The notes under the pieces were generated by a model that did no database searches, was not told where the DNA came from, and saw nothing but the letters and a program-made list of their open reading frames with translations. The position numbers and the translations under genes are program-made. DNA of 64,000 nt from Phoronis australis (Eukaryota > Animalia > Phoronida): contig NMRA01000370.1 in the NCBI GenBank assembly GCA_002633005.1, positions 1 through 64,000 of the forward strand, read 5' to 3'. Positions 1-64,000 of this stretch are shown piece after piece (position 1 is the first letter of the stretch; each line of letters opens with the position of its first letter).

Positions 1-388
1 GAGCACCCCCCATTGAGGACAATGCCACTGAGCACCGCCCCAATACACAATCCTAGCAATTGGTTGTTCCATTTTGGACAATGTTTTGTCACATGATGTG
101 ATAGGTTGTTTGATTAATAATGTATAATCTCATCTTGGATGCAAGTTTAATATCAGACAGCCACTGTTTACATGGATTTCAAGTCGTTTATCATGGTGTT
201 GGATTCTTTGTGATAAGACCCATTAAAACGACAGAGCATCCCACTAAAGCATTGTACTGCATTGCAAACATAGGCTGCAATATTCCCAACATATGAATAA
301 TGTCTTGATAAATTTCTCACCTTGACTGTGACGGGGACACTTAAAGCAACATTTTTTCTCTAATCTACAACTTTGCTGATGAATTATA

Positions 389-708
389 TCCCTGGCGATG
401 AGTCACTATTCACAAGGAAGGTGTATAGGGAAAGAAACACTCGTCTTATCAGGCCATAAAATCATTTATCGCACCTTATTTAATTCTGGAGAAACAATGA
501 AAGCTGTCTCAAGATAGAAATTAAGCAGAGTTAATTCTACTTGCCGAAGACATCCTTGGCGATGAGTCACTGTTCAGAAGGAAGCTGTGTAGGGGAAAGA
601 AACACTTGTCTTATCAGGCAATAATGTCATTTATCGCACCTTATTTAATTTCGGAGAAACATTGAAAGCTGTCTCAAGATAGAAATAAAGCAGTTAATTT
701 TATTTGCC
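389..708. repeat. Direct tandem duplication of ~160 bp (two diverged copies)
   Basis: TGGCGATGAGTCACT...GAAAGCTGTCTCAAGATAGAAAT...TTGCC occurs at ~389-545 and again at ~553-708. Confidence 0.8.
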
Positions 709-3231
709 ATGAAAAATTTTTTTTTTATTGTTCATGTCTCGCAAGGTCAATATTGGGTACTTTCAAAAATGAGCTTTTGACATGGCACTGGTATATTTGG
801 TAATTTCAATGGTCTCTCTGTCTTTCCCCCTCCCCCCACTGCCTCTCCCAAAATTGATCTTTTCAACTTTCAGTTGCTTCTTACGTGGCTGTAAATGCCC
901 AGAATTTTCAAAACATTGTTTGATTGAAGCTATGCTAGGGAACTTGTACATGAAATAGCACTAACTTTGAAAATTGGTGCTATTTTCATGGAAAAATGGG
1001 AAAATTGTATTTCTTTAATTGTCCCGGGAACTTTAAGTTTGTGGTGCATCATTGTCTTGACAATTACATAATTGTCCGTCATGAATCAAATTTCGTTTGT
1101 CCACCATGGTTTGTCCTAAATTGGTGAAATTTTACCACATCATGGTTGCGCAATCTTTCACTGCCATGAATGCCAAGTTTTTCAAAACATGGTTTGACTA
1201 CTAATCCATGGTACAGATCTCTTTCAGAAAGCGCTGATTCAGTGCTTCATATTTTTCTTGGAAAATATGGGAAAATGAAATTCCACTTATCGCCATATTG
1301 TCTTGTAAGATTATACTGTATTATTGAAAAAGTCACGCTAATCGGACTCGGTCCACGTGAGCCATTAGAAGCACCTCCCCCCCCCGACTCCTCTAGCCAT
1401 TAGAAGCACCTCCCCCCCGACTCCTCTCCCCCGACCCCACCGATCCTTTCTTATAGTTTCCTATTTCTTTGTTTTTATACTCGCAGAACCTCATACAAAA
1501 ACAGTTTGCTTGAGGCCATGAATTGTTATCCAACACGACTTCATGATGATTAATACTGCATGTCCTAATGTCATAACTGGGCTAGAATTCTCCTCAAGGT
1601 ATGGATATTGGATAATGAAGCTGTGTCATATTTCTCACCAAAGTATCATCAGCGATGAGCAATGTCTCGGGTGTCCTGCCGCTGGGATATTAGTGTCTGT
1701 ATATTGATTAATAATCAATGTTCATGACAGTTTTATGAAACCATATAGTTCAGTTTTTAGAAATGGTGTTGAAGTCATATAGCTTCTTAACACAGTGAGG
1801 TACATGCACACGGATGCATGCCCCACTTCGCCACATATTTAGGGTGACTATAAATCTTCTGTCTAAGATGTAATGGCCACCGAGTTTCTCAAAAGGTGTA
1901 ACTTTCGACATTCAAAATTGCCTTTTTGGTTATTTCTTTTTGTAAGTGCCGTTCCACAATTAAGACATGACGCTTTGTTTTCTGATATACACGTGTCTGT
2001 GGTATTTGTGCATTTGATAGTAGAAGGGTGGTGCCTAATGCATTGACCCATGCACTGGAGTTTTTGTTTGGCCACAATCAATAATTCATCAATCTCATTC
2101 AGTCTAGTTTGCACTAATTATGGTGCTATTGGAAATCAATCCATCATAGGTGATACGAGGTAGAGTCACTTTGTGTACCAAGTCAATTTACACACTGCAC
2201 TTGTTACAAGGTGAAAATTAATTTCATGTAAGAATATTATTATTTATGTTCAAAGATTTAGCGGAAAAAATAATGGGATTACATCCACGTATTTTCACAT
2301 GGGAACAACATTATCGTTTCTTTGACAAAGTTCCTCATATTGTCATTTCCTAATCCTGACTTCTGTTTAGACACATTGTTCCTATGCATAAATTCCAACT
2401 CTGTCAGCTACCTAGTTTCTTTTAAGGTTTCCCTTGATGGAGGGGCACGCGCTACGAATGCAAATAAGCCCAGCTCATAGGTCACGTTGAGTCAAATCCG
2501 GTGAGGATTTTGCCTCACAAGGCCAAGAAGCGAGTGTCTCATTTCTTGGATTAATTTCATGTCGCGGGCCAGGTGAGATAAGGCTTACGGCATATTCTGC
2601 CGCCAAAAAGAATTAATTATTGTATCACCTGACAACTTGGGAAATCTATTAGCTCAGTGCCACTTTGCAATCGTGTGTACTGCATTTGCACTGTTTTCTA
2701 CAAATGTAATTACTATGTCAGTGAGTATTTTTCTCGCTGTGTGTGAGGAACCAGCTTCATGCTATTAGGGGCTGATCTATAAAGTTCACTGGAGGACAAT
2801 CGCTTGGTTCGCACCCATTCAAGTCTGCCCTGGTCCTAAAACCTAGCTGCTATCAGGGTCTCTTCTTGTCATAGTTGGAACTGAATGAGACCATGACAAG
2901 TCAGTTATTCCTCCAAAGCTTGTTACACAAGCCTATTGATCAAAAGACCCTCTAGCATCACAGACAAATTGCACATTAAACCTAGAAGCAATCAAACCCA
3001 AACAACAGGCCTTTGTGCAGATCACAATAACAGTTCAAGTCATTCTCTGACTTATGTAATAGCCTACCAAGTCTTTTTACACCTGGCTCTATACTTGGAT
3101 AACCTAACCTTTCTGACCCATTGAGCATCTCAAACTATGATCAGCAAATATTTTTCTGGGGAGTATCAAGGGTACACATTGCTGTGTATTGCCTATTTTA
3201 GTATTGTTTTAGATGGCCACCAGATGTCTCC

Positions 3232-46310: not shown

Positions 46311-49300
46311 ATGAGCAGAATGTGCGAAAATGGAGAAACAAAGAGAACGGCGCATGTTATCTCTGAGAAATTGAGAACTTGTGACGTTTCATTGGATAAA
46401 AACGTGAATTTCTCCAATCTTCTCCTTTCTGACACTGTTTTGCAAGGATTGGTGAAGTCGGGCTTCCACACACCTTCTCCTATCCAGTTGAAGGCTATTC
46501 CCTTGGGGAGATGTGGTCTAGGTATTACTCTTGCTGCTACTGTGTAATCTGTGCAAGTGTTACTTTAGTTACACCAGCTCATAGTTAATCCACCAACCTA
46601 CGACATTGACCCAACGCTGCCCTCAGCTTAGTAGGCTCTGCCCGGTGCTACTACTGTAGCTCTACATTAGACAGTACTGTTGCAGCCCAAACTAATGCCT
46701 GTGCCTAAATGATTTTGTGTACTTCAATTTGGCATGAGTCGGTGAGCCGAAATGATGCCTGCGCCAAACCGAAGCTACTGTTAGTTCCCAATTTACTGCC
46801 AGTAATTTATATTTTTTAGCTGTTATCACAACTGAAATTGACGACAATGAGTGCCGGGGTGGTGTGAATAGTTTCTCAGAACACTTCCCCCCATGTGGCT
46901 AATTTATATGACCTGCATACATAAGCACTGATTGTCGTCAATTTTGGGTCTTATAACCGTGAAGAAACTTACAAAATACTGGCAGTAATTTGGGAACTTA
47001 GCTGTAGCTTCAGTTTGGTACAGGCATCAGTTTTGCTCACCAGTCCACACCAAACTGAAGTGCGCATAATCAGTTTGGCGCAGGCATCAGGTTGAGCTGT
47101 AATATCACACTCTCAACTGGCCCCAGTAGAAATGGTCGATGGCCATCCCAAATGGCTGCCGCAAGCGTTTCGGGGAATTATACCTCACTGATTTAACAAT
47201 TAAAGTAATATTGCTATAGGCACCTTTTATGCATAGAGGGACACCTTAGGAGATTATTAATGTCTAACTTTTCCCAGCTCGAACTAATATTCCTGCAATC
47301 AAACTTTTATGTCAAGAAGCATGACGTCATATCTCCTGGCGCGAGCAGTGTAAAAATGGCCAGTTGGCCACTTGGGTCACTGGCAGCCCTATGAGATGGT
47401 CACCGTCTCTACTGCGGCCAGTTGAGAGGGTTGTTCTGTCTACCACCACTCTTGAATGGTGTTGGTAATCTTCGTGGGTGATTTGCCAACCGATTGTTAT
47501 CACCATTTTTGGTGAAGTGGTGTTTGGGTGAGATGTGTTGTTAGGGAATGTTTTTGAATTTGCTGTCAGATTATTTCACTTTAAATGTTGAACTGGTAAA
47601 AAAACAATAAAATTGTGGACAACAGGTGCAGAATTTTCATAGTTCAGAAAATTTTCAATGCCCCATCCAAAACACATTGCTCAATTTAAAATTTCGAATG
47701 TTTGTACCATTTCAGTTCGGTAAGCTGTTTCTATATCCAAGGTCAAAAAGTGTTCGGAAACCAGGTCGACTCGGTTCATTATTAAGTTGAATTATACTCG
47801 TTGAAATTTTTTACTCAGCGGTCGTTATGTCGAACTCAAGATAGAGGGCCGCCTATCAACTTGCCTAACTAATTTTAAATTTAGTTCAAGAAATTTTTAA
47901 TTAGAAGTTTTTTCTTTTTCAGATCTTATCGTTCAGGCCAAGTCAGGTACAGGAAAGACTTGTGTCTTTACAGTGATTGCATTGGAAGGAATTGTGGTAG
48001 AGAGTAAGAGTTTGCAGGTTAGGGCAGCAGTTGTACGACACATACCATTAATGGAGAAGTGTGGCATAACAAATATACCCATCATGCAGTAGTAGTCTGT
48101 TAACTTCTGAGCTATTTGCCTGATAGGGCAGTCAGTTAATATAATGTTTTGGTTGTCACTTTTATATGCTATAGTTGAAACACGTTTTACTCATCCTGTT
48201 TTAGCTTTAGTACTATGATTTTATATTCATCTGCAAAAATCGATTCTTTCTTAGCATTCTAACTTTAATTCCATGAATCGCTTGTTAAAATGTAACGCAA
48301 TTTGACTTTGTTCATTATCAGGTGTTGGTGTTGGCCCCGACACGTGAGATTGCCGTGCAGATTCATGACGTTATACAGTCGATTGGTCAGTGTCTCCCGG
48401 GACTACGTTGTCACACGTTCATTGGTGGACTACCCGTGAGCGAGGACCGACAGAAACTCAAGAAGTGCCACATCGCTGTTGGTTCACCAGGTAGTACTAC
48501 CACGTAGGATTTGGTGTAAAAAAATGATGGCCAATTGCTTTCTGATTATTATTTTATTGACAGCCATTTTGTTAGTCTGATCTTTGTAAAGTCTGCTTTC
48601 TTGCCAGACCTTAACTAAGTGTCGCTTTGTACGAGTTCCTTCTGCGTAATCTTTTGTTGCTCATGTAAAATTGGTCAGCGCTGAGGTTCAAATCTTTTTA
48701 CTGGAAATCGAACTCAAATTTATTTTTGACATTTTACTTCAATACAAAGTCAAGATAAGTGTTGACTTTTCTCTGCTCAGGTTCATCCTGATGAGTGTCT
48801 AGTTCAAGTTTGTCCTTGATGACCCCTAGGCTCAAGTTAAAAATTCACACGAAATCTCGAGGTTTGGTTGAAAAACTCAAAATTTCGAATTCTGACAAAA
48901 AATGTCATAAGTAATTTTGATTTCAAATACAAAGATGGGACCCCAGGCCCCTTGCATCATGAACATGATTTTGGACATTTGGCAACTTGGATGTTTTGGT
49001 AAAATGATACCTTGGCATTATAAAACTTCACTACTAGATAAATTATTTTCGTGTCTCTTTGATGTTTTCGATGAAACCGTTGTATGCAATTTAAATTTTC
49101 TTGTGCTGAAAACCTGGCCACCACATTTGTTATATATTTCATATCAGGTCGTATCAAACAACTCATTGAGGAGAATGCCCTTTCTACAGAGAACGTTCGT
49201 CTGTTCATTCTTGACGAGGCTGATAAACTGCTTGAAGAAGGCTTCCAAGAACAGATCAAGTGAGTGTGTAAGGAGACAATGCAGCTCAGCAGTTTGAACT

Positions 49301-52300
49301 TTGAACTGAGTGTGTAAGGAGACGGTGCGGTTCAGCGGTTTGACCTCCGAACTCTCGTTTGGGAGATCTGGGTTTAAATCCTGGCTTCACTGGCAGACAG
49401 TTGAGCATTGCACATAAGTGTCTCCTTCTCTTTTGAGCTCGGTTTTGCTAGTGAGTTTATGCAAGGTAATGAATGTGCCCATAATTAAATTGTCTGTGAT
49501 AATAGCCTCCGGCTAATGTTCTATGGTTACGCTGAAAACTGACAATAAATAATTTAAATAAAAAATGTTATTGTATTGTCTAGTGTGTGCATGATTACGT
49601 TGAAGCAAGGTTGCACTGTCTTTCAGTGTTCTCCACAACCTGTTTTGACTTGTTACTGGGTCAAGTTTAAATTTTGTCATGAAGACTAAGGCTTACTTGT
49701 GTCAAGTTTGAAAACCTATGCAATGAGTTTGAAGTATTAGGAGATAATCATTTCTTAAGCAAATTAGGAATTTTTTGGATTTTCGGTACTAGTTTGATGC
49801 ATTTATTTCAAAACTCAAACTCCCTGCAGTGTGAACACGGAGTTTCAAACACATACATGAATTTTGTAACTCCAGGCAACTTAATTTTCTGTTGTGTAGA
49901 ACACCGCAGTCTCAGAGGACGGTAATGCATCAGTTATCTAGCGCACAATATGGCCTACAAGTGAAACTGTATTTTATCAAACTTCTTCATTTAAGTAAAA
50001 ATTGGAAAAAATCCAGTTCATTACTGACATGGTGTGTACCGTTTAGATTTCATAAAACAAATTTTGGTAACGTTTCCTTAGTTTCCACGAGTTGCAACCT
50101 GTCCACATTTTGAAGAACAGTGCATTTAATAGTAAAAGTGCATTGAACAGTTGAGTAGCGCAAGATTGTGCCCTCTGTATGAAACCTTGTTATTTTTAAT
50201 TCGTAAGTCGATGAATTTTGATTTGATATTCTGGAGTAAAATGATTAATAGGATAGTAACTTACAATAGACTAACCTCCCGTCCAGGGGGAGACGAAGGG
50301 TTCACCCAGTTGTGCTACAGAAACTGGTTAGCACCTGAACGTATGAGTTACAGGCTTTGTTAAGGATTTACATGCAACCAGAGGTTAAATGTGTGTTCTA
50401 ACGACAATGGTGCAGTTTTGTTGTGACAGCCGCAAACTGCACAGAACCTATCCTCGCCAGGGGTGCACAAAATTCTTGATGGTTGATATTTAAGATGTCC
50501 TCTAGTTTTAATACCACTCTTGAAGGTCACACACTTTCCAGTCTTGTGAGGTCTTTGGCGCGTGATTTCCCCAACAAAATGTGAACTGTGTTAAGCCACA
50601 CGGTGGTAATTTGTCTTATACTCTGTTGCAGTTGGATCTACTCATCGTTGCCTGAAAACAAACAAATGGTGGCGCTGTCAGCGACCTACCCAGAATACCT
50701 TGCTCATCACTTGAAGGTCTACATGAGGAACCCAACATTTGTCCGCCTGAATTCAGTTGACCCCGCACTGCTAGGTAAAATATCACCCAATTTTGGACAA
50801 AAGTAATAGACAAAATTTATGTTTTTCACTATTTTTTGTGAATGCTAGTAATTTCACATATTGTCTTGTCACAGGTAGCGTGTAGAACTTGCAAATGACA
50901 ATGGATCATTAGTTGGAAATGAGGAAACGGGTGTAGCGTCACATTCTTGAAGCCATCGTAGAGTTGGTGTACATTTGAATCATTTTATATGTCTGTTGTG
51001 CTCATTACAAGTTGATTTTATTCTCAGTGGCCTTTGGTTACAAGAAATGTTACAAAGATGTTGCCTTTACTGTTATCAGTTTCGTCATCCTTGCAGGTGT
51101 GAAGCAGTTCTACCAGGTGGTTCGTTTTCATCCCCTGCCACACGTGGCCTTTGAGAACAAGGTGCAACACCTCACCCATCTGTTATCCACCGTCGCCTTT
51201 CACCAGTGCCTCATCTTTTCCAACTATCAGTCCAGGTAATAAGAAACATTCTACGGTATATAGAACTCTAAAGTTTTGAGAGCACAATAGCATCTGTTGA
51301 GCGAAGCATTGTCAAACATTTAATAAATAGCCAAATGGTACACAACTTCATTTTCCTGACTTTTCAACGTTTCGTCTTTTCATTAGACATCATCAAGATC
51401 ATATTTACAATAATTTAGGACTACAAGTGCCAACAATGGTGATGACCAGCTACTGACCATATTCTATGTATCTCTCACTTCGCTCTATGGATGTTACCTG
51501 AGCTGTTTGTTGGCACTTGTTGTCCTAAACTGTTGTAAATGTGATCCTGATGATGTCTAATGAAAAGACGAAACGTTGAATTGAACACGAACTTTTTATT
51601 TGTGCGGCGATAGTCTGGTTTTTGATCTTATTGTGGCCAAAACTGATTTAATTTTCCTGACTTGTTTCGAGGTGCACTTCTCATTCTCAAAGGCACAAGA
51701 ACCAGCATGATGTAAAGGTCAAGGTAACCAGTAAAAGGTCATGCAGGTGTGACACATGATAGCTCAATAACACAAGTTAAACAAGCCGCTACTCCAGACA
51801 ATATCTCAAAACAATGCGAGACCAAGCTGGTCACACAAAGTTATTGTCAAGTGTAGAGGCTTGTTTACCCTCACGTTATTGGCCTGTCATGTCTCACATT
51901 TGCATGATCTTTTGCTTGTTGCCTTGTCCTTTACATCATTCTGGTTCTTGTACCGTTGAGAATGAGGACTGCACCTCAAAACTTGTCAGGAAAATGAACT
52001 TATGTACTACATAGCGTCTTGTGTGCAAGACTGTGTGCAGACGATACACTAGCCATATTCATGTGAGTCGTTTGAATGTCCATAGCGCAAAGGGGTAATT
52101 TGTCGGCATGATGGTGACAAAGAATTAATAAAAAGCTGAAAAATGTCCGACCGCGTTAAATGCAGTCGGAGCGATGTACATCACAGGCTTCCGAATACTT
52201 ATGCCGTTTAATAAGGTAAATTTCCTGAACTATTAGAAGAAATTTCTACTGTAATCTCATCATGAAATACTTGTAAGACTGTTGAGTGTGCAAGTACTGA

Positions 52301-55300
52301 CTCCTGTGTTACGCAAGTTGCAGTAGTGAAGACGTTTGGAATGAATACTAGTTGACGCAAGTCTGGAATAATCTTATTGATGTGTTGGGTCCATGCACTG
52401 CAAAGTTATGTAGTGTGATTGTACAGCAATTAATATTTGTCCTGGGTCGGTTACAATAGTGAATAAGCTTGAGCCCACTCGCCCACAGCCTACGCGTGTA
52501 CACTTGCAAAGGTTCATTCATGAGGGAACAATTCATTGTAAGGCGGTGCCCTCTCACATTCTCTACAGTCTCGCTAACCTGATGTGTTTAGGCATTTGTC
52601 GCCATTTTTGTTTGTGTTCAACTAAGTTATTAAGGCGTGGTGAGCGAAAACTACAACTCTAGTTTTCGGTCAGAAACTATGAATAATTATGTCTAATCTG
52701 TTTTATTTTTTTACAATCACCATTTTGACATTTTCTTTTACTTGACATTAGAATCAACAATCTTGCAAGGTGTGCATAATGTTGGTGCATTTGACCCTGT
52801 GGATAATTGAATTTGACCTTCACTCAGACTGATAGATAGAACTAAATTTCACTGCGCAGCACCTTAAAGAGGTATCTGCATGCTCCTAACTATGCTAATG
52901 TATATAGCAGGAACTAAACGACAATGCTATTCGAACATCATCTACACTAAACTAAGTGTAGTTGTATTCATTGACAACTTGTAAATTTAATGTAAAAACA
53001 AAAAATTCATTCTGCAAATATGTGACCTTTGCACTGACGTACCTTGGGGGCTCACATAACCCGCATCATGCAGTCATATTTACCAACACCACGTCACGAT
53101 ACTTACTGGACACAGTTGAATGACTTACAGCGTATCATTTTTGACACAAAACTCGCTCTTTAAAATATTTGGCAATTTTCAACCTACTTCATATTCATCT
53201 TCGCTATATTTTGTGTTTCTAACTAATTTGACCAAGCAATCATGCAGATATGGGTTCTTGACATTTTGGGTCCCCATTTGGTGTCCGTTATGTCATTTTA
53301 GGGTACAAGAGATGGTTCATTCCCCTTTAAACTATCATTTGTGGATACAACCTGCATAGGTGGACCCCGGAGAGTTGGTACACCTCTGTTTACTTAGGGG
53401 TACCGTAACCAGTCTCAAACATAGCCGCAGCTTGTCTGCTTTTATTTACACATAGTCACATTTTACTCGGAAATACCTGTATTTTTGTAGGTGTACTCAT
53501 TCTTGTAGATGAAAAGCAAAAGTTTACTAGATGAGAATTCAATAATAAACTGTTCTGTGTCTTTCATTTTGTGTCAACCGCACATGTCGTCATGGTTTTG
53601 CAGAGCAGAGTCACTGTCTAACATCCTGAACTCTCGCGGCCTCCCGTCCACCTGCATTGCGGGGAGTCTAGACCAGAAGCAGCGACTGGAAGCCATGAGC
53701 AAGTTACGCAACTTTGAGTGCAGAGTGCTCATCTCAACTGATCTCGTAAGTGGGCCGTTGGAGCTATGCCAAACTCACCAACCAATCATTTCAATGACTC
53801 ATATTGCTGAATTGGGCTAGTCAGCTTCCGAGCATAATTGCAAAACATTAGCCTTGCTTTTGCGTGGTCTTCGGAGACCTTGCTTTTCTTGCAAGAAAAT
53901 TGTTCTACAAAATGCTCTCGGGTATGACTTGTGTTCTCCTGCTGGGCATCCGTTATCAATACTGTGTATGCGTTGAATGCTCTATGTCATTTGGTTGTTT
54001 AAGCAAAATTATGTTCACATGTAGATAGAAATTTCACCGAAAGGTCATTTTATGCAACGAAGTCTCGGAAAACCATTGTTTTTTCATATTTTGTGGTAGA
54101 ACATTGGTTTTATAGCACTGCAAGTTAAGTGTCATTTGGTCCATGGTTTTATGGTGTGTAATTAGGCTTTCACCAATTGCCTTAGTGGGAAGATACACCG
54201 CAGCTAAGTTGATTTATTCCAATTTGATATTACCAATTTCGTTGTGACCTAATGAGCATCGCACGAGTCATTAATTAAGGTTATAACCACATCAGATGCT
54301 TTTGTCCAACAATGTTCTGCGTCTCAACAGGTCGTAACTTGATTACCTTCTAGTGTGTGTAGGAACATTTTTCGCTACTAATTCTCCCAACTTTCTGTCC
54401 CACTATTAGCTTGTATCAAGTTTAGGCTAGTTTTTATAACTATATTAATCTGGCTTAAGTAATTCACTTACTCACTGCATGGTGGCGCCACTCTATACTC
54501 ATGTGTCAACAAGTGATGGGTTGCCAGTGTTTCCCACCATTCTGTGTATTTTAACACTTATTAAAGTAGACGTGAATTGCCTGTTTCTTCAGACGTCCCG
54601 AGGTATTGACGTGGACAAAATCAACCTAGTCATCAACCTGGACTTGCCTAAAGACCACGAAACTTATCTCCACCGAATTGGTCGTGCTGGGAGATTCGGT
54701 AAGACAGATATGATGTTGAATTGCGGATAACAGTGTACTGAATAAATTATTTGTTAATGCCAGTTGTCTTGTATAACAAGATGACTGTCATTATTCTTAA
54801 CTGTGTACCATCTTCATGTCCTTGTTTGTTACTTGCCTTCCCGCCTGCTTTTAATGGTAGCATTCTGTACACTGTGTGAGTTGAGCATTTTTCAATGTGT
54901 TGATAATCTTGTATCTTGATTGGTGGATTGTTGCGAACGTGGATTTGATCCTGCGTCACTGCATTGCAAGGACGTTCGGCGGAGTTTTTCCGTATAGACA
55001 TATTTTTAGGTTTTTGACAAAAATCATCTCTGGTTGGTCATATTTGTGCTTCACAAGTTGGCAGTAGATTAGCCCCATACATTTTGGAACTCTGTGAAAA
55101 TTGCCCAAAGTTTCTTTTAATTTTTTATTTAGTGCATCTGATCCTCTCATTTTCTTGTGTTCAAAATGGAATGGATTAATTTGACCTGTGAATAACTCGC
55201 TGATTGCAAATATTTAGTCGTACCCAATGTAGTTTTATTCAAATTCGCTCTTTTCTGTCAAACATTTTATATTTCTCAGGCTTGCTCACGGCAGTGAAAA

Positions 55301-56247
55301 TCACATCATTGCAGAATCGGTCATACATCAATTAGCCGCTGTTTCACATTTAATTAGAATGGCATGTCAGTTTTGTGTCGGTATGTTGCCAAGTGTTTGA
55401 CTATTGAATTTGGTTGTAAGGTAGACTTTGCTTAATATGCTCAATATTTTGAGTTGTACACATATGACTGCTGTAACGCTCAAGCCCAGGCTTTTTAGTT
55501 TTGGCGGCTATTGATGTCACTGCCATCACGTAACCAAGAGTTAGCATCCAGAATCCCAGATGAAGTTTGGCAAATAGGTGATGGATGGTAAAATGTTCAT
55601 TGAGCAAACATGAAGTTGGTGATCGTTATACCTTCCTTTTACCCTGAAATTTTTGGAGATGTGAGCAATGCTGCCAATTTATTTTCATTCAGAAATGGCC
55701 ATCGTATTCGTTTGTCTTAACACTCATGTTTGTCTGATCACCCATTCTTCGAATTACATTTTCATTTTGGAACAAATGTGTTTCTGTGCTCGGTTATATC
55801 CCGAGCTTTGAGTCGCTTATTCCAACTCCCTATTGCATTAAGGTAAAATCTCAACATTTTCACACAAAAGTAATCTCCAAAAATGTCCGTTTTCGTTTTT
55901 TCGTGACCTCTGTCATTGTTGTGAATGGCACGTAATTTCTGATTGCAGCTGTGGCATAACACTTAAAAATGAAAAGGCATTTATTTGGTGCTACTCGTAG
56001 CTTCTGAGAAAAATAATTTCAATTTTCATCTCTTGTCTGCTGTTTTATGTTATAAATTGGTGTCGTTTTACTGTACATCGAAATGGATGTTGTTTGTTTA
56101 CCTTGTCCGATTTTTTCGTGACCTTTGAACCATTTTTGTTGGCAGGAAGCTACGGCGTGGCCGTAACCTATGTTTGTCGTGGTAACGAAGAATTGGCACT
56201 TAGAACCATGGAGAAGGCGTGTAATACACACATTGACGCATTGCCAG
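46311..56247 (+). CDS. DDX20: DEAD-box RNA helicase DDX20 (Gemin3/DP103), exons 1-9; 3' part not found in the window
   Basis: GT-AG exons 46311-46521, 47923-48017, 48322-48490, 49148-49259, 50632-50774, 51097-51235, 53604-53745, 54593-54698, 56146-56247. Motifs [70 protein letters not shown]. The start could be ATG 46311 or 46320. Confidence 0.95.
46683..47100. mobile_element. Foldback/MITE with ~170-bp imperfect inverted arms in DDX20 intron 1
   Basis: AGTTCCCAATTTACTGCCAGTA...AATTGACGACAATGAGTGC mirrors GCACTGATTGTCGTCAATT...TACTGGCAGTAATTTGGGAACT. Confidence 0.7.
49307..49390 (+). mobile_element. Possible tRNA-derived SINE head relic
   Basis: A-box-like GGTTCAGCGG and B-box-like GGTTTAAATCC with tRNA-like spacing; preceded by a 46-bp diverged duplicate starting at the DDX20 exon 4 donor. 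Confidence 0.35.
50255..50370 (+). mobile_element. SINE central-domain relic (V-SINE-like)
   Basis: GACTAACCTCCCGTCCAGGGGGAG...TGCTACAGAAACTGG resembles the conserved core of invertebrate V-type SINEs, judged from recalled consensus only. Confidence 0.4.
51363..51580. mobile_element. Penelope-like element remnant: 74-bp inverted repeat carrying a minimal hammerhead-ribozyme core
   Basis: Arms 51363-51436 and 51507-51580. The right arm reads CTGATGA-T-GTCT-aatgaaa-AGAC-GAAAC-GTTG, the minimal hammerhead motif typical of Penelope pseudo-LTRs. Confidence 0.65.
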
Positions 56248-57597
56248 GTAAGAAATGAAGTGTTTGTGTGGCGCATTAGTGAGTGTAGTGGGCTCACAAA
56301 TGAAAAGTCGCGAGTTCTGTTCTGGGATATCCGCATCGTATGCATACCGTATTGCAAGAGAGTTATTATATAAAACTTTTCAACTTATTTGAGAATTGAT
56401 TGCTGCATTTCATTGGCTACTGTCAAATTCTTCCACCTTCTGCGTCACCTTGTTGTATGTGTTCTTCTCGAGGTAAATGGATGGAAACTGTGAATTGTGA
56501 ATGGGAGTCAGGTATTACTTTTCACTACTTGCATCAAGATCAACACAGGTCGCCTAGTATTTCATAAGGTTGAAAAAATTCGGCAATGAATCCAGAAGAG
56601 ATTTCGCAAGTGGTTATCTTGATCAATGTCGTCCTGTATGCCATTCGTCAAATTTAAAATAAGAGCAACGTTTGTTATTACGTTGCCAACACAGTTGACA
56701 AGGACAATTCATATGTTTATTTGTATTAAAGGCCTCTGGTGGTCCAAAATACAATAAACAAAAATTAAACAGGCACATTTGCACATGTAGTCAACCCATT
56801 TAAGAGTTGTTCTCTTCTTTTAAGGGCAGAATACAGATGTTTAGTAACAGAATGATATAATTATGTGGATTAGGTAGCAAGCATATACAGGATTCTTGAG
56901 TTGGACAACCTATACATGGAAAACATGTTGGTAACTCATTTTAAAATATCTAAGCATTGTCGCAACTACTATTAATAACTTTTACGGAAGGAGGGATTTT
57001 AGCTGCTTTAAACCAAGAAACCTACAAGTGAAATACCAGGCACCGTGAAAAATTAATTATTGTGCTCAAGGTTGGAGCTTGTCCCATATTCTAGAAATAG
57101 GCAATGTTAGTCGTCCCAAACTCAAGAATCACAGGAAAGAATGCAAAATTAACCACTCTGTACATTTAAAACATATTGTCCGTAATTTAAGAAATATGGT
57201 GAATGACAAAATTGCCTTTGACCCAAATTACTGAATGAAAAATATTCAATTTTTGCAGGGGTCTCCGCATCCCAAATTACAGAGACTGTCCCAAAGTGGT
57301 GAATTTGTACCATGCTTAAACTTTACTATTTTAGGCTAGATTTCAAATTTTTAAAAATTGATTTGTGTATTCAGACTGATAGAAGAGAGTGAAGTAGTAG
57401 ACCTCTTTACTTTGTGTTTGAAACAATGAATTTAGTTGGTTTAAATGGTAATTCTTGACTTATTTCGTACAGATATAATTGTCAAAATTTGTCATTTTGC
57501 TAGGGTTGATTGCCGTCATTTGCCCCCACTGATGATAACATACAGTGCAGACTAAGCTAACAAGAGATTAAAATTTCTCGATAATCTTAATTCTTGT

Positions 57598-58095
57598 TGG
57601 GAAATAATAATAATAAACTTTATTTAAAGAGGATAAAAATACGATAAATGTAAAACACGCTTTACTGTTCCACTGTTTAATGGTCTGAATAAATAAGGAC
57701 TTAGAATAAAACGATGTTCTGTGTCTGGGCAAAACCAAATTGTTTGAGGCAGAAAATCTTGTCCTAATCTGGTGGCTATTTCGAATAAGTACGAGATTAT
57801 GAGATAGATAAGTCGGTACATTACCATGAAAGCACCTATGCATCATACACAGACGCCTATATATAAAATATTTGTCAATAGGGAGCCACCCCAGTCTATT
57901 AGTTATATGAGTTGACTGAGTGTCAAAAGGCACTCCTAGAACAAGTCTGGCCGCCTGCTTTTGAGCCTTCAATAAAGAGGAAACTAATTTTGCATTGCAT
58001 CCTGACCACACTGTACTACAATAAACGAACAGAGGGAATACACAAGCGCTGAAATATTGCAGACGGCCTTCTGTGGGAAGAAATGGTGATATTCA
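57598..58095 (-). mobile_element. 5'-truncated LINE (L2/Crack/CR1 group): ORF2 C-terminus plus (TTA)n tail
   Basis: Translation ISPFLPTEGRLQYFSACVFPLFVYCSTVWSG...QKQAARLVLG...LGWLPI...P.YL...RTR...SL...IKQWNS, followed by AATAAA and TTTATTATTATTATT. Confidence 0.85.
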
Positions 58096-58155: not shown

Positions 58156-61100
58156 TTACTGACTAGAGGAGGTGATGGGGTGATTTCCGCAAACATTTGT
58201 TTTCTGGTCCCTGCGGTCTGACAATGTCTCGCTGATGCTCTCTGGTGTTTTCCAGCCGCCATCTTTGTAACGACTTTGATATGGCCCAGGCCAAACTAGT
58301 GGCACCGATACCTGGCCCAGCCATGGCCTTACTATCAAACGTGAAAAGTTTATGTTGCAATCCACAGTTTCCAAGAAGTCCTTGTCTGCTCTGGCTGTGT
58401 CTACCAAACGTTCACCAATTCTCTCCTCAATTCCTAATATCTCGTGTGGATTTGATGATTCACTGGCTGTAATGGCGTCGATTTCCTCCTGCAGTTTCCT
58501 AAGACGTTCTGTGTGCGTTTCATTGATAGCTTTCATTCTGGAGAGACTTTTCTTTGCTTGTCCGTACTTCTCGTTGAATTCACTGCGTAGCCGTTTACCG
58601 GCCACTGCAACCTTTTTCTCCCACTCGCTGATTGACTGATCGATTTCATGGCGTATTCTAATGGCACTATTTTCTAACACGTTCTCTTTAATGTCTACTA
58701 TTTTCGCTGTAGCTTCACACAATTCCAGCACAGAGTTTACTATATCTAACGAGGATCGGAGTTCAAGTTTTACATCATCTCGGGCTGTATTCAAGCTCTT
58801 ATGCTTGTGGTTGGCATGGCTAATGTCTTTGCAGACTGGACATATCAGTGTCTTGCACTGCATACAATAGTCATCTTGCTGTTGGTAATGTTGTGTACAG
58901 TACAGCGGCCATTTTGGATTGATGTCTGTCTTCACAGCATCTGCAGTGTGACCTTCAAATATATCCTTGAGAGGCACTACCAGGTGATCATTGGTGAATT
59001 TTGTTAAGTTGTGGCATTTTGCACAATTGTCGCATAATAGGTCTCCGCATTGCAAACACTTGCTTTCAGCTATGACTGTTAGTGATTTACCGTGACTGCA
59101 GATGTCGCAGTTGAGATGTCTCCGTGTTTTGGTAACAGCCGATTCAAGCAGGAAATTGATGGGGTAGGTTTGCACACCGCCAATGGGCTTTTTTATGTGA
59201 CAGCAACAGATAGGACATTGAAACTGACCCCAACTTTTTAGTCCATTTCTTGATTGTCTTTTCGATTCATAAAAATGCCTAGCCATTGGACGGATTGTAG
59301 TCTTCTCGGTATGCGGAAATTTTTGGTTATTTTGTTTCGATTTTTTTTGAACAGCAGTAAACCTAAATAGAGAAGGGCTCTTGAGAGAGTCTTTGTGTGG
59401 AAGTAGCATTGCACTTGGCCCAAATGATAAGACTGGCTTTTTGTCTATATTTTCCAAAGTAAACTTGAAACCTTGTTGTGATGGCTCTCGAAGCAATGCT
59501 GGTGTTCCAAATGACAATCCTATTGTTGTTTTTGTTTTTGCATTTTCCTGCTTTGGAGTAGGTGCAAACATTGGTGATGTTCCGAATGACAGTCCTGTTG
59601 TTGCTGCTATTGTTTTTGTGTTTTCCTGCTTTGGACTATGTCTGGACACTGCTGGTGTTTCAAGTGATAATCCAGTTGTTGCTATTGTTTTTGCGTTTTC
59701 CTTCTTTGAAGCTGGTGCAAACTCTACTGATGTTAGAAATGTCAGTGCTGTTGGTTTTGTATTTTCCTGCTTTGGAATAGGTGCAAACATCGGTGCTGTT
59801 CTGAGTGACAATCCGGTTGTTGCAGTTGTTTTTACTTTTCCCTGCTTTGGATCAGGTGCAAGGACGGTTGGTGTTCTGGAATCGACGTCCACGGAGAAAA
59901 GCTTTGTAGCTGCTTCGATTTTCTCTGCCAGGATTTCATTGCGGCTTGGTTGAGGTGAAGAGTCTTTCACACCTGTGTTCTTGGAAGCATCGTTGATACT
60001 ATTGAGCTTCCCTTCCGTCTGTGATTTGTGTGTTTGAATTGGTGTTGGTGTTCCAAATGAAAATCCTCCCACTGCTGTGTTTGTTCCTGTTGTCACATTT
60101 CCCTGGTGTTGGTTATCCAGCAAGGTGTCTGACGAATTTATCATTTTTACATTTCCCTGCTTTATACCAATTTCAAACGCTGTTGGTGTTCCGAATGACA
60201 ATCCTGCTGTTGCTGTTATTTTTGTGTTTCCCTGCTTTGGAGTATGCCCAAATGCTGCTGGTCTTTCCAATGATAATCCTGTTGTTGCTGTTGTTTTTGC
60301 GTTTTCTTGCTTTGGAGCATGTCCAAACGCTGCTGGTGTTTCAAATGATGATCTTGTTGTTTTTATGTTTTCTTGCTCTGGAGTATGTCCAAATGCTGCT
60401 GATGTTACAAATGATAATCCCGTTGTTACTGTTGTTTTTGCTCTTTCCTGCTTTGGAGTGTTTCCAAACATTGCTGGTGTTTTAAATGATAATCCCGTTG
60501 TTACTGTTGTTTTTGGGATTTCCTGCTTTTGAGTATGTCTAAACATTGCTGATATTTCAAATGATGTTCCTATTGTTCTAGAATTTTGCTGCTTTGGTGT
60601 TCTAGAATTGACATCTGCAGAGAAATGTTTTGCTTCTGCTTCCACTTTCTCTGCCAGGATTTTATTGTGGCTTGGTGGAATTGAAGAATCTTTCTTACGT
60701 GCGTTGGAAGTATCGTTGATACTGGTTAGCTTCCCTTCCGTTTGTGGTTTGTGTGTTGGAATTGTTGCTGGTGCTCCTAATGACAATTCTGCCGCTGTTG
60801 TGTTTGTTACTGGTGATATATTTTCCTGCTTTTGGTTTTTCAGCTTATTAGAACTTACTGCTTTATTGTTCCTGTTTGAAATAGATGCAAATGATGGAGG
60901 GATTGCTCCAAATGAGGATCTTGTTGTTGCTGTTGTTGTTGCTAATGGTGTTGTTGTCATTCCTGTTAACTGTGCTTTGGTTGTTTTGTTTTTTTTCCTA
61001 TTGGTTGCTAATGCAAATCCTGGCCGAGTTGTTGTTGCTGTTGCATTGTTTATTGACGTTTTGCTGTCCTCTATTGCCTGTTCTTTCAAACTTTCACTTT

Positions 61101-61458
61101 GTCTGGAAGCAGAGTCGGGTTGTCTGTCTACCAGTGTGGTTGATAAGCTTCCATTTGTCGAGATTTTTTCTTTAAGTTGTTCTATGTTCATAGACATACA
61201 TGGCTTTCTGAACAATCTTGTTTCGTCAGTTTTCTGGCAGATTTTCTTGTTATCCTTGACGTTGTTTGAAGCTGGCTTACTAGATATGGCGATGAGTTCC
61301 GTCAAACAGGTAGTGCAGAACGAGTGAAGGCAGGGCAAAATTCGTGGTTCAGTGAAACGTTGGTGACAAAGTTTGCATGCCAAGATGTCATCGCCAATTT
61401 CTTCAAGCAGTGAACCAAGTTGCTTTCTTTCCATCTTGCTGGTCTGTAAAATCGTCAT
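58156..61458 (-). CDS. TRIM/RBCC protein (RING, B-box1, B-box2, coiled coil) with the RING split by a ~700-aa repeat insert; single 1100-codon ORF
   Basis: C28xxC31...PCLHSFCxxC51 (RING ligands 1-6); FQC748PIC751...GGV..YPINF (ligands 7-8 plus the usual post-RING motif); CDIC...CLQCGDLLCDNC...H...H (B-box1); CTQH...YCMQC..LICPVC....H..H (B-box2); heptad-rich helix. The true start may be M9 (61434), which follows an acceptor-like TTTTACAG. Confidence 0.9.
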   Translation of the reverse strand: MTILQTSKMERKQLGSLLEEIGDDILACKLCHQRFTEPRILPCLHSFCTTCLTELIAISSKPASNNVKDNKKICQKTDETRLFRKPCMSMNIEQLKEKISTNGSLSTTLVDRQPDSASRQSESLKEQAIEDSKTSINNATATTTRPGFALATNRKKNKTTKAQLTGMTTTPLATTTATTRSSFGAIPPSFASISNRNNKAVSSNKLKNQKQENISPVTNTTAAELSLGAPATIPTHKPQTEGKLTSINDTSNARKKDSSIPPSHNKILAEKVEAEAKHFSADVNSRTPKQQNSRTIGTSFEISAMFRHTQKQEIPKTTVTTGLSFKTPAMFGNTPKQERAKTTVTTGLSFVTSAAFGHTPEQENIKTTRSSFETPAAFGHAPKQENAKTTATTGLSLERPAAFGHTPKQGNTKITATAGLSFGTPTAFEIGIKQGNVKMINSSDTLLDNQHQGNVTTGTNTAVGGFSFGTPTPIQTHKSQTEGKLNSINDASKNTGVKDSSPQPSRNEILAEKIEAATKLFSVDVDSRTPTVLAPDPKQGKVKTTATTGLSLRTAPMFAPIPKQENTKPTALTFLTSVEFAPASKKENAKTIATTGLSLETPAVSRHSPKQENTKTIAATTGLSFGTSPMFAPTPKQENAKTKTTIGLSFGTPALLREPSQQGFKFTLENIDKKPVLSFGPSAMLLPHKDSLKSPSLFRFTAVQKKSKQNNQKFPHTEKTTIRPMARHFYESKRQSRNGLKSWGQFQCPICCCHIKKPIGGVQTYPINFLLESAVTKTRRHLNCDICSHGKSLTVIAESKCLQCGDLLCDNCAKCHNLTKFTNDHLVVPLKDIFEGHTADAVKTDINPKWPLYCTQHYQQQDDYCMQCKTLICPVCKDISHANHKHKSLNTARDDVKLELRSSLDIVNSVLELCEATAKIVDIKENVLENSAIRIRHEIDQSISEWEKKVAVAGKRLRSEFNEKYGQAKKSLSRMKAINETHTERLRKLQEEIDAITASESSNPHEILGIEERIGERLVDTARADKDFLETVDCNINFSRLIVRPWLGQVSVPLVWPGPYQSRYKDGGWKTPESISETLSDRRDQKTNVCGNHPITSSSQ
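59480..60570 (-). repeat. Coding tandem repeats (~75 nt / 25 aa) within the TRIM ORF
   Basis: Unit ~TTGLSFGTPAAFGHTPKQENAKTTA; ATGATAATCCCGTTGTTACTGTTGTTTTTG recurs at 60411 and 60486 (75-nt period). Confidence 0.85.
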
Positions 61459-64000
61459 AAAAAGGCTGCGATCTTTTGCACTACAACACCTTTCTTAGGT
61501 TTTTGGGAAAAAAGAACTGATAAAAATGCCTTTTGAAAACATTTTTACAGGCTTTAAAAAAACTGTTCCACAGTATGCGCTTTCATGCAAGACTTATTCC
61601 TTGAGTTTTTGCATAATTAAATTTTTGAGAAAAATTTGCAGCTCACTAATGCAAAATTTGAGAAATTCTCAGCTTCAAAGTAAAGATTTTGGAAAAGAAA
61701 TTTTGGTGAAAATTTCTCAAAAAAGACTTGCATGAACCGGCTCTTTGAGTTAATAACTATAGGAATCAACCTACTGTTTACAAATTGCCCGAGATTTTCA
61801 ATTCACGGGGAAAATTAGTTGAAACTGTCACAAGAACTCCAGTTTCCAACAGCTTTTTCCAAGTTGATAAGAAACTCATAAACAACTATCGGTTACTTTG
61901 CAATGCGAATTCTGTTCTAAGTCTTGTGTTCTATTTGACATTAGTTAAAAACTGCATAGTTTGTTCTGGTCTCTGTTTCTTCTTTTTGAACATTGACTCG
62001 GTGGTGCAATATTTTTAGTTGCTCAATTTTTCAACAAAGAAAATCCGCTTGAGATGAGCAGCTAAAATGACATGGGATTTGTTTTAATCCTTCCAAATGC
62101 TTGGCAAATCGTGATATTTCAAACCTTGTTTACCCGTCCTTACATGCAGATTTTCAAAAAAAAGCATCACAGGTCCTCGGCTGAAATTCATGCGGGCAGG
62201 CATTTTTTATTTCTAGTCGGTGAGCGCAGGTCTCAAAATGAGTCGGGGTACAGTCATACCTCAATCAGCTATGCTATTTTTGGTCTGATCTTGAAATATT
62301 GCGCTTGTTTTTGTAGAACCAAAATTTTCAACTCCCAACAGAAGTAAAATATTTAAATATTAAGTAAATTCTTATACCGGCGTGGAAATTTATATCGCAA
62401 ACATTCTATTCTGTTCCGGTTGGGGCAGAAATCTTTTCAGACTGATATTCATTAGGTCACGTGATGTGCTCACAGGTGGTGTGTTGAGTAGACTTAAATG
62501 TTCGCGATGAAGTAAAATATTGTTTACATGGTTGAACATCCCAAAATTTGCACCCATAGGTTCTGCACTGGGAATAAACGAAGTATGGAGATCTTGGAGT
62601 TATTTCATAATTTTTGAAGTGGCCATCAACCTACTTTCAGTCCAAGAAGCAAGCTTTTCATTTAGACTACTTACCCCTATAAATTTTTTTTCCTATTTTT
62701 ATTTTAAAATACCCCTATAAAACTGGTCTCAACTTGCATGAGAATTGATTTCTAGGTTTGCAAAGATCTAATGGTACGTTATTCCTTGAGGTCATGCTCG
62801 GAGCATAAAATGACAGAGTTTGAAAAACCAAGTCATACTGGGATTTTCCATGGATAAGCCCATGGCCGTGTATTTGGAAAATGAAAATTTTAGGTGTTTT
62901 AGCACTACCAAATAAACGCCCGGGCGTTTCTTCAGAAAAAAGACATACTTTTGCAGACACTGACATTTTGTACTTAAAGCTGTGCTTTTAAATTTTATGT
63001 TAAGAAATGCTTAGTTCGCCAACACCTTGTTCGTTTTTGTAAGTGATAAATGCTCCACAAAACTGATTTTGTGACAAAAAGTGGATGCTGAATTGGTATA
63101 AGAGGAAATTTTACAAATAAACGCCCCACTATCTGTACACTTACACCGGAAGTTGTAAGACCGAATACATTGTTACAAGTGTTGGAAACTTTTGCTAAAC
63201 ATTGCTTTATGACATCTATACAGTACAAATCACATTAATAATAGACTGACATTTTTTGTCAACACCGAAATTTGGCAGAATAGAATTTCATTTGTCGGCC
63301 GTATTGCATTCTGCATATGTGAATTACCATAACTGTGTTTTCATAGTTAGCGTTTCATAGTTTGTGCAAAGCAGGGCCTGGGGTTTACTCTTTTTAAGCA
63401 AAATCAAACTCAAAATTGTTTTTAGAATGTGATACTCTACTTTTGTGCGAACTCAAGATAAGTGTCTATTATTCTATGCTTGAGTATCTAATGGCTTACG
63501 TTGACAACCTGTTAATCCAAGTTTTCACTTGATCACACCGGCTATCAGTTCAAGTCTAAACTCGACATTTTAAAATTTTGCTCAAAATCCCAAAGTCTTT
63601 ACGTGATTTTGTAGCACGAATATATGGTGATCAAGTGCGGACTCATGCATGCATAAAACTGTACTTGAGCACAGGCTAATAGCCACATTTCTTGAACTTG
63701 CACAAAAGTAGAACAGAAAATGCCATGACTAATTTTGAGTTTGATTTTGAGTACAGGGATTTGGCCCTGTGAACCCCCAGATCTCAAGTTGTGAAGGAAT
63801 CAATTTGCTGCCTGCAAATTACTCTTTTATTTCGCCCATTCAAGACTGGATTGCCATTTCCAAGAATTTTTATCTTAATTTGGGATTGTCTCAGCTTATG
63901 AAAGATTCACCAATTTACGCTAACTTATTGAGTAGGAAGCACATTTTGTGCATGTTTGCGTACAACGCCTGTAACACTAATACTAATATTACATACCCAG

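What the first reader, a model, noticed from the sequence alone, without database searches (positions are those of the whole stretch)
58156..61458. TRIM E3 ligase whose RING finger is split by a ~696-residue insert
Seen in sequence: RING ligands 1-6 (C28, C31, C43, H45, C48, C51; nt 61377-61306) are separated from the last CxxC (C748-P-I-C751, nt 59217-59206) by 696 in-frame, stop-free codons. The last CxxC is followed by the typical invertebrate TRIM motif P.GGV..YP.NF, then two intact B-boxes and a coiled coil. Established: in C3HC4 RINGs this spacer is normally a few to ~50 residues and lies next to the E2-binding surface. Inference: the cross-brace RING still folds with a giant disordered loop displayed from it, turning the catalytic domain into a sensor or scaffold. 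No C-terminal SPRY, NHL or filamin domain is present, so the insert may replace the substrate-recognition module. Domain scanners would probably miss this RING.
Basis: partly seen in the sequence, partly recalled or inferred. Interest (0 to 1): 0.85.

Follow-up and report, generated by a model that had tools for sequence, protein, structure and literature searches.

The report
TRIM ligase with giant RING loop
This transcribed animal gene encodes a TRIM-type protein whose small zinc-binding RING domain is interrupted by a 696-residue repetitive stretch; the domain is predicted to fold around that likely floppy loop, making it an extreme, likely independently evolved version of the 139-residue loop of human TRIM52.

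Summary
One stop-free ORF (61458-58156, minus strand, 1100 aa) carries RING ligands 1-6, then 696 codons, then ligands 7-8, two B-boxes and a coiled coil. It is single-copy in DNA contigs and transcribed on its own strand at about DDX20 level, with reads inside the insert and no listed skipping joint (low depth). The insert grew by in-frame repeats: 28 of 28 repeat offsets and 6 of 6 gaps are multiples of three, but amino-acid sequence is unconstrained (dN/dS 0.9-1.1). The joined halves score as a full RING, and AlphaFold2 closes them into a TRIM2-like RING (79 of 79 residues, 2.1 A) with the loop disordered. The kind is known: human TRIM52/TRIM41 have an expanded loop at the same place, and TRIM52 stays an active ligase. 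This loop is 5 times longer than TRIM52's and 6 times the longest among 154 relatives' RINGs. Corrections: Pfam does detect the RING; a missing C-terminal domain is common in relatives; the linchpin Arg is Cys here, so activity is doubtful. Verdict: new, extreme variant of a known kind; function of the loop untested.

The parts
58156..61458 (-). Single-exon ORF, 1100 aa, RING(split)-B-box1-B-box2-coiled coil; the real start may be M9 (61434)
   Evidence: M9 has A at -3 and G at +4 and follows a candidate splice acceptor at 61444 (inferred)
61294..61419 (-). RING N half: N-terminal helix, ligands C28, C31, C43, H45, C48, C51, central helix to L55
   Evidence: Pfam zf-C3HC4 26.5 bits; TRIM56/TRIM2 matches; pLDDT 86-97 over residues 21-60
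59218..61305 (-). RING loop 2, residues 52-747 (696 aa): Thr/Ser/Lys-rich, net charge +41, 69 Lys, predicted disordered
   Evidence: pLDDT under 50 for nearly all of 65-740; no family or relative found
60143..60564 (-). Repeat array 1 in the loop, about 5.7 degenerate 75-nt (25-aa) units with core T-G-L-S-F/L
59497..59876 (-). Repeat array 2 in the loop, about 5.1 degenerate 75-nt units
59497..60844 (-). Segmental duplication inside the loop (60844-60181 against 60121-59497), 22% nucleotide divergence, 6 of 6 gaps multiples of three, dN/dS 1.06
59137..59217 (-). RING C half: C748-P-I-C751, linchpin position C752 (Arg in 89 of 125 relatives), G-G-V and N-F motif, C-terminal helix
   Evidence: pLDDT 83-95 over 741-770
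58984..59109 (-). B-box 1 (C784-H825), 8 of 8 ligand positions
   Evidence: Pfam ANCHR-like_BBOX 22.3 bits, below cut-off 27
58807..58899 (-). B-box 2 (C854-H884), 8 of 8 ligand positions
   Evidence: Pfam zf-B_box 21-23 bits, just below cut-off 24.1
58366..58794 (-). Coiled coil (residues 889-1031)
   Evidence: helices 889-946, 952-998, 1004-1031 in the model; TRIM5 B-box2/coiled-coil match Z 11.9, rmsd 2.7, 131 aligned
58159..58365 (-). Unstructured C-terminal tail; no NHL, filamin or SPRY domain
   Evidence: an X5 contig reads through 58396-58154 unspliced
57600..58092 (-). High-copy repeat 64 nt after the stop codon, likely the 3' end of a LINE
   Evidence: X1 depth 830-5360 against 47 for single-copy DNA; LINE identity is recalled from the translation; Pfam gave only one weak unrelated hit
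46374..56248 (+). DDX20 (Gemin3) exons; the last exon seen ends in an open donor at 56248, so the TRIM gene likely lies antisense in a DDX20 intron
   Evidence: human DDX20 2oxc E 4e-13; Helicase_C; no convincing next exon up to 64000; nesting inferred

Best explanation
This is a transcribed, intact TRIM56/TRIM2/3-like gene whose RING loop 2 has grown to 696 residues by in-frame repeat duplications; the RING is predicted to close around the likely disordered loop, and the protein likely works like human TRIM52, as a coiled-coil-dimerised ubiquitin ligase or adaptor of probably weak activity whose loop likely acts through its length and composition rather than a fixed sequence. Steps. Shown: ORF, ligands, repeats, sense transcription, frame conservation. 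Predicted: zinc site I forms inside the N half (C28, C31, C48, C51; cross-brace order is established knowledge); site II closes when C43/H45 meet C748/C751; the RING then sits next to B-box1 as usual and the loop hangs out between the central helix and the last strand. Inferred: the coiled coil dimerises the protein; the Lys-rich loop is a flexible docking and ubiquitin-acceptor surface that sets turnover and low-specificity multivalent contacts, as the TRIM52 loop is a degron; ubiquitin transfer is weak or E2-specific because the linchpin is Cys; the role is fast-evolving innate defence, as usual for expanded invertebrate TRIMs (recalled).
For: Folding: joined halves 79.2 bits over positions 3-80 of 82 of a RING profile built from 139 compact relatives (training median 89.8, 5th percentile 74.6), against 56.2 for the N half and 51-63 for 4 control joins; AlphaFold2 model matches TRIM2 RING 8a38 at Z 12.4, rmsd 2.1 A, 79 of 79 residues, model range 13..778; a polymer estimate gives about 30 uM effective concentration of the two halves. 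Selection on the frame and on both halves: 28 of 28 repeat offsets and 6 of 6 duplication gaps are multiples of three, P(no stop) 0.013 under neutral change; 2 of 2 indels listed in the ORF in X5 are 3 nt; the tip branch is third longest of 126 yet 42 of 47 consensus columns are kept, equal to the median; open frame plus 24 ligands survive 3.5% neutral change in 0.3% of 3000 simulations. Expression: X6 and X7 sense depth 1.98 and 1.71 in six insert bins, 1.93 and 2.67 in three C-terminal bins, DDX20 exons 0.7-4.0; DDX20 reads lie on the opposite mate strand and most DDX20 intron bins are empty. Loop not sequence-constrained: dN/dS 1.06 and 0.89. Precedent: TRIM52 is active with a 139-aa loop, the loop is a degron, and the linchpin mutant is inactive (PMC12022042 passages).
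Against: The model was driven by an alignment of compact RINGs and resembles solved structures, so it shows compatibility, not that closure happens in cells. Linchpin is C752 (Arg in 89 of 125) and K757 stands where nearly all relatives have L/V/I. Listed allele differences show no purifying selection in the C part (9 nonsynonymous, 2 synonymous; 11 of 13 listed) or in the insert (15 and 1; 16 of 24 listed). RNA depth is about 2: a joint needs 3 reads to be listed, the RING N half is touched by only about one or two reads, no molecule links both halves, and X8 (1 of 3 raw RNA runs) had reads only near the coiled coil. The TRIM52 loop is acidic, this one basic. No orthologue was found, so nothing shows the arrangement is kept across species.
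Confidence: 0.45

Rival explanations
1. Pseudoligase: the RING folds but does not activate E2~ubiquitin; the protein is a scaffold or dominant-negative partner of paralogous TRIMs through B-boxes and coiled coil, and the loop is a passenger or tether.
For: Linchpin C752 and K757 depart from consensus; TRIM6 and TRIM22 are inactive with a Gln linchpin plus destabilised cores (PMC11992055 passages); TRIM52 linchpin mutant is inactive; no C-terminal domain.
Against: L30, P38, L41, P749 and both flanking helices are kept; 46 of 154 RINGs in relatives have neither Arg nor Lys there, 2 have Cys, one in a compact Lingula TRIM56-like protein; TRIM32 is active with Ser.
Confidence: 0.2
2. The loop is a specific recognition module that replaced the lost NHL propeller, diversifying under pathogen pressure; its Ser-Phe-Gly-like repeats may mimic nucleoporin FG motifs.
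For: 7 of the 10 best relatives have NHL hits (5 above cut-off) and this gene has none; 15 of 16 listed insert differences change the amino acid (P 0.09 against neutral); 10 FG dipeptides and one FSFG; positively selected sites of TRIM52 lie in loop 2; an engineered TRIM5-NUP153 FG fusion restricts HIV-1 (PMC3795039 abstract).
Against: Ser-Phe-Gly survives in only 3 of 8 aligned units and repeats evolve at dN/dS 0.89; no nucleoporin family or protein matches the loop; the polymorphism excess is not significant and drops to 0.49 if all 8 unlisted changes are synonymous; 45 of 121 relatives also end soon after B-box2.
Confidence: 0.15
3. A gene under recently relaxed selection: the frame was kept while the loop grew, but the locus is now a transcribed gene drifting to loss.
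For: pN/pS 1.24 in the C part, indistinguishable from neutral; linchpin lost; no orthologue in 1.84 billion representatives, best E 7e-22; repeat right after the stop; TRIM52 itself is often lost.
Against: No stop or frameshift among the 27 substitutions and 2 indels listed for X5; 24 of 24 ligands intact; 1 difference in 187 nt across the B-boxes against 9 in 309 nt of coiled coil; expression like DDX20.
Confidence: 0.12
4. The halves do not close in cis: the N half keeps one zinc site only, or pairs with the C half of another chain, cross-linking dimers.
For: Site I lies wholly in the N half; closure spans a coil of about 26 nm.
Against: The C half has kept consensus residues that only make sense in a complete RING; cis effective concentration is far above likely cellular levels (inference).
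Confidence: 0.04
5. Artefact: the insert is an intron or an assembly error and the protein has an ordinary RING.
For: RNA depth is low and the N-half junction is barely covered; X1 may be the window's own sample.
Against: Three X1 contigs tile the ORF with 0 differences at flank-like depth; sense reads cover the insert as well as the C part; only 1 in-frame donor/acceptor pair with positive scores removes 500 or more codons, it is weak and would leave a 177-residue loop; a 696-codon open, triplet-periodic intron is not expected.
Confidence: 0.04

Closest known systems
Human TRIM52 (and TRIM41)
   Same: Long, low-complexity, predicted unstructured loop between RING ligands 6 and 7; no canonical C-terminal domain (TRIM52); fast evolution of the loop (PMC3845644, PMC6536530, PMC12022042; passages).
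   Different: 696 against 139 residues; Thr/Ser/Lys-rich and basic against acidic; built of 25-aa repeats; keeps B-box1 and coiled coil, which TRIM52 lacks; linchpin Cys against Arg187; nearest relatives are TRIM56/TRIM2/3-like, so the origin is likely independent.
TRIM56 / TRIM2 / TRIM3 (subfamily C, TRIM-NHL) and their mollusc and brachiopod expansions
   Same: Best sequence and fold matches for RING, two B-boxes and coiled coil; G-G-V and N-F motif; 8 of 154 RINGs in relatives have loops of 52-110 residues, among them Pecten XP_033728063 (83) and Mytilus XP_071159568 (75).
   Different: Median loop 15 residues; most top relatives carry NHL repeats; identity only 20-34% in the alignment; no supported orthologue in the tree.
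TRIM pseudoligases (TRIM6, TRIM22)
   Same: Intact zinc ligands with a non-basic linchpin (PMC11992055 passages).
   Different: They have compact RINGs (recalled) with helix-breaking changes; inactivity is shown for them, untested here.
FG-repeat nucleoporin domains; engineered Trim-NUP153C
   Same: Disordered Thr/Ser-rich chain with spaced Phe-Gly-like motifs (resemblance recalled; counts).
   Different: Lower Phe content (33 of 696), FG not conserved between units, no family or sequence match; sits inside the RING, not at the C terminus.

Membership tests
TRIM/RBCC | N-terminal C3HC4 RING with eight zinc ligands | tested here: met
   8 of 8 invariant in 126 sequences; fold match to TRIM2 RING
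TRIM/RBCC | One or two B-boxes after the RING | tested here: met
   16 of 16 ligand positions; Pfam hits at E 9e-5 and 1.4e-4, below curated cut-offs
TRIM/RBCC | Coiled coil after the B-boxes, order RING-B-box-CC | tested here: met
TRIM/RBCC | Ubiquitin ligase activity | not testable with these tools
   needs an in vitro assay
Canonical RING consensus | 4-48 residues between ligands 6 and 7 | tested here: not met
   696; consensus as quoted in PMC3845644, where TRIM52 and TRIM41 also exceed it
Canonical RING consensus | Basic linchpin residue after ligand 8 | tested here: not met
   C752; Arg in 89 of 125
TRIM-NHL (class VII, subfamily C) | RBCC most similar to TRIM2/3/56 | tested here: met
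TRIM-NHL (class VII, subfamily C) | C-terminal NHL repeats, with or without filamin domain | tested here: not met
   no Pfam hit; a profile of 59 relatives' tails finds nothing above 6 bits in six frames of the window
TRIM52/TRIM41 | Expanded loop 2 | tested here: met
TRIM52/TRIM41 | Acidic D/E-rich loop | tested here: not met
   17 Asp, 36 Glu, 69 Lys, 25 Arg in 696
TRIM52/TRIM41 | Orthology or loop homology to TRIM52/TRIM41 | not tested
   no TRIM52 or TRIM41 sequence was compared directly; domain content differs
FG-nucleoporin repeat domain | Dense, conserved FG/FxFG/GLFG motifs | tested here: inconclusive
   10 FG, 1 FxFG in 696 residues; SFG in 3 of 8 units; no Pfam hit
FG-nucleoporin repeat domain | Binding of transport receptors or capsids | not testable with these tools
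   needs binding assays

The most novel reading that the evidence does not exclude
An active E3 ligase that carries its substrate-recognition module inside the RING: a 696-residue repeat loop that replaced the NHL propeller and mimics nucleoporin FG repeats, catching viral capsids or transport receptors right beside the E2 site, a natural counterpart of the engineered TRIM5-NUP153 restriction factor.
Probability: 0.07. Interest if true: 0.85.

Novelty: new variant of a known kind. Interest (0 to 1): 0.5.

Why it matters
If the protein folds as predicted, a two-zinc RING tolerates a loop five times longer than the largest described in a human TRIM (139 residues), arising likely independently in another TRIM subfamily with opposite charge. 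That marks loop 2 as a general expansion site and gives a natural test of how far apart RING halves can be and still activate an E2, a point TRIM52 workers called unexpected at 139 residues. It also warns that such genes get annotated with a truncated RING. The importance is limited by its being one orphan gene without orthologue, shown activity or partner.

Tried and rejected
No whole genome is held, so paralogues and a possible donor of the insert could not be searched. Word-indexed protein searches: whole protein 1 distant hit, C part against shorter proteins 0, insert 0 at E 10; lengths above 1925 residues were not searched. Representative library: 0 of 150 best-scoring stretches fall in the insert (only the best stretch is shown). 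ESM Atlas: whole protein only generic TRIM clusters under 0.9, insert no usable hit. Metagenome scan: 1 weak 38-residue match, not followed. Viral contigs: none. A two-chain complex prediction of the halves was not available; the wide fold search was busy. My first loop-length count picked wrong Cys pairs and was replaced, where 147 of 150 proteins gave a measurable RING and 3 none. The alignment used 125 of the 150 relatives. Donor calibration was mis-indexed; its splice scores use recalled frequency tables and are rough. No target-site duplication at the insert borders beyond one 7-mer. No tRNA genes. Descent from a nucleoporin: considered, no support found. The run search listed no holder on record as RNA; the RNA evidence comes from laid raw reads. 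Literature searches listed no paper on a TRIM RING loop longer than TRIM52's; the library lacks most subscription papers and no supplements were read, so this does not show absence.
Full report
Observation. The ORF 61458-58156 on the minus strand gives 1100 residues without a stop. Shuffles of the insert never gave an open run above 205 codons in 2000 trials, and the five other frames hold 7-47 stops. Human TRIM56 RING aligns in two collinear pieces on either side. Pfam zf-C3HC4 passes its cut-off on the N half alone (26.5 bits, cut-off 21), so the RING is not invisible to scanners, only truncated.

Is it real DNA and RNA? Three contigs of DNA run X1 tile the ORF with 0 differences at depth 46-48, like the flanks; X1 may be the window's own sample, so this checks assembly only. 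In raw RNA runs X6 and X7 (18-19% of each read), reads over the ORF lie almost all on one mate strand and reads over three DDX20 exons on the other, which fixes them as sense transcripts of the TRIM gene; most DDX20 intron bins and the region upstream of 61402 are empty. Depth is 1.98 and 1.71 in six insert bins, 1.93 and 2.67 in three C-terminal bins, and 0.7-4.0 on DDX20 exons. No joint inside the ORF is listed, but listing needs three reads, the RING N half is touched by only about one or two reads, and X8 had reads only near the coiled coil. Contigs of X5 (RNA by guess) cover parts of insert and C half but stop at 61250. A rough splice scan finds one weak in-frame pair that removes 500 or more codons, and none that removes the whole insert.

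What the insert is. It is Thr/Ser/Lys-rich (170 Ser+Thr, 69 Lys, net +41), borderline disordered by charge-hydropathy and under pLDDT 50. It holds two arrays of degenerate 75-nt units and a duplication of about 660 nt at 22% divergence. In a codon-blind comparison 6 of 6 gaps and 28 of 28 repeat offsets are multiples of three, and neutral simulation leaves both copies stop-free in 1.3% of 5000 trials; both indels listed in the ORF for X5 are 3 nt. Amino acids, however, are not constrained: dN/dS 1.06 between the copies, 0.89 among 8 units. So the frame was under selection while the loop grew, the sequence was not. A caveat: the repeats could have evolved in a donor gene; X1 shows no second copy at 93% identity or more over the ORF, but the genome could not be searched. 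No relative of the insert was found. It has 10 FG dipeptides, but Ser-Phe-Gly is kept in only 3 of 8 units.

Do the halves make a RING? Among the 150 best relatives, 147 gave 154 measurable RINGs: loop 2 median 15, 8 above 48, maximum 110. A profile from 139 compact ones scores the joined halves at 79.2 bits over positions 3-80 of 82, within the training range (5th percentile 74.6), against 56.2 for the N half, 22.8 for the C half and 51-63 for four control joins. All 8 ligands are invariant in an alignment of the query with 125 relatives. The query is the third longest tip of 126 yet keeps 42 of 47 consensus columns, the median value. AlphaFold2 on the unaltered full-length protein gives high confidence to residues 21-60 and 741-770, and the model superposes on the TRIM2 RING over 79 of 79 residues at 2.1 A, Z 12.4, range 13..778, and on TRIM25, TRIM69 and TRIM21 RINGs. 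The model leans on compact homologues, so it shows compatibility only. A coil of 696 residues still gives about 30 uM effective concentration (polymer estimate).

Signs against full activity. The linchpin position after C751 is Cys (Arg in 89 of 125) and K757 replaces a hydrophobic residue. TRIM6 and TRIM22 are inactive with a Gln linchpin, though TRIM32 is active with Ser (PMC11992055, passages). Listed X5 differences are 9 nonsynonymous to 2 synonymous in the C part and 15 to 1 in the insert (27 of 37 substitutions were listed); neither departs significantly from neutral. None makes a stop or touches a ligand.

Context. The nearest named relatives are brachiopod and mollusc TRIM56-, TRIM2- and TRIM3-like proteins, so the host is likely a marine invertebrate. 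Seven of the ten best have NHL hits; no NHL remnant is found in the window; but 45 of 121 relatives also end soon after B-box2, and RBCC-only TRIMs arise repeatedly by domain loss (PMC3503706, passages). A high-copy, likely LINE-derived repeat starts 64 nt after the stop. DDX20 lies on the plus strand; its last visible exon ends in an open donor at 56248 and no convincing next exon was found, so the gene is likely nested in a DDX20 intron.

Comparison. TRIM loops between ligands 6 and 7 are often longer than 48 residues (PMC2533329, passages). TRIM52 has 139, the largest human RING, with positively selected sites in the loop and no C-terminal domain (PMC3845644, passages; PMC6536530, passages). 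It is an active ligase in vitro despite the loop, the loop is a degron bound by HUWE1, and its linchpin mutant is inactive (PMC12022042, passages). The gene here works like TRIM52 in architecture but is not filed with it: different subfamily, basic repeat-built loop, B-box1 and coiled coil present. An engineered TRIM5-NUP153 FG fusion restricts HIV-1 (PMC3795039, abstract and outline), which makes the FG-mimic reading conceivable, not supported. Eight literature searches listed no longer TRIM loop; supplements were not read.

Verdict. Real, expressed, frame-conserved; structural reading about 0.85. Best mechanism, a TRIM52-like ligase or adaptor with a composition-based tether or degron loop, 0.45; pseudoligase 0.2; specific recognition loop 0.15; relaxed gene 0.12; no cis closure 0.04; artefact 0.04. 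New variant of a known kind, extreme in size; interest 0.5.

Noticed in passing
window 46374-56248 (+): Multi-exon DDX20 (Gemin3) gene; its 3' part appears to continue past the TRIM gene, which would then be nested antisense in an intron.
   Followed up: partly
window 57600-58092 (-): High-copy repeat with a 174-codon open frame resembling the end of a LINE reverse-transcriptase ORF (recalled), directly behind the TRIM stop; may relate to loss of the C-terminal domain.
   Followed up: partly
window 62422-62468 and 62035-62250: Heavily transcribed repeats; loose read ends at 62422 look tRNA-like, suggesting a SINE fragment.
   Followed up: no
window 3125-4298: About 1.1 kb at 9% GC with open frames of 340-380 codons in all six frames; probably an assembly gap or a very simple repeat; not read.
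   Followed up: no
window 22850-23224 (+): Exon-sized match to Pfam DUF1151 (E 8e-10).
   Followed up: no
proteins P0119, P0099, P0076, P0077: Other invertebrate-type TRIMs with low-complexity RING loop 2 of 110, 83, 75 and 68 residues, two from Pecten and Mytilus: loop expansion recurs.
   Followed up: partly
window 61444 (-): Candidate splice acceptor 9 nt before M9, which has a good start context; the protein may start at M9 after a non-coding first exon.
   Followed up: partly
window 18728-18811, 21858-21948, 23486-23651: Near-perfect tandem repeats of 5, 30 and 33 nt.
   Followed up: no
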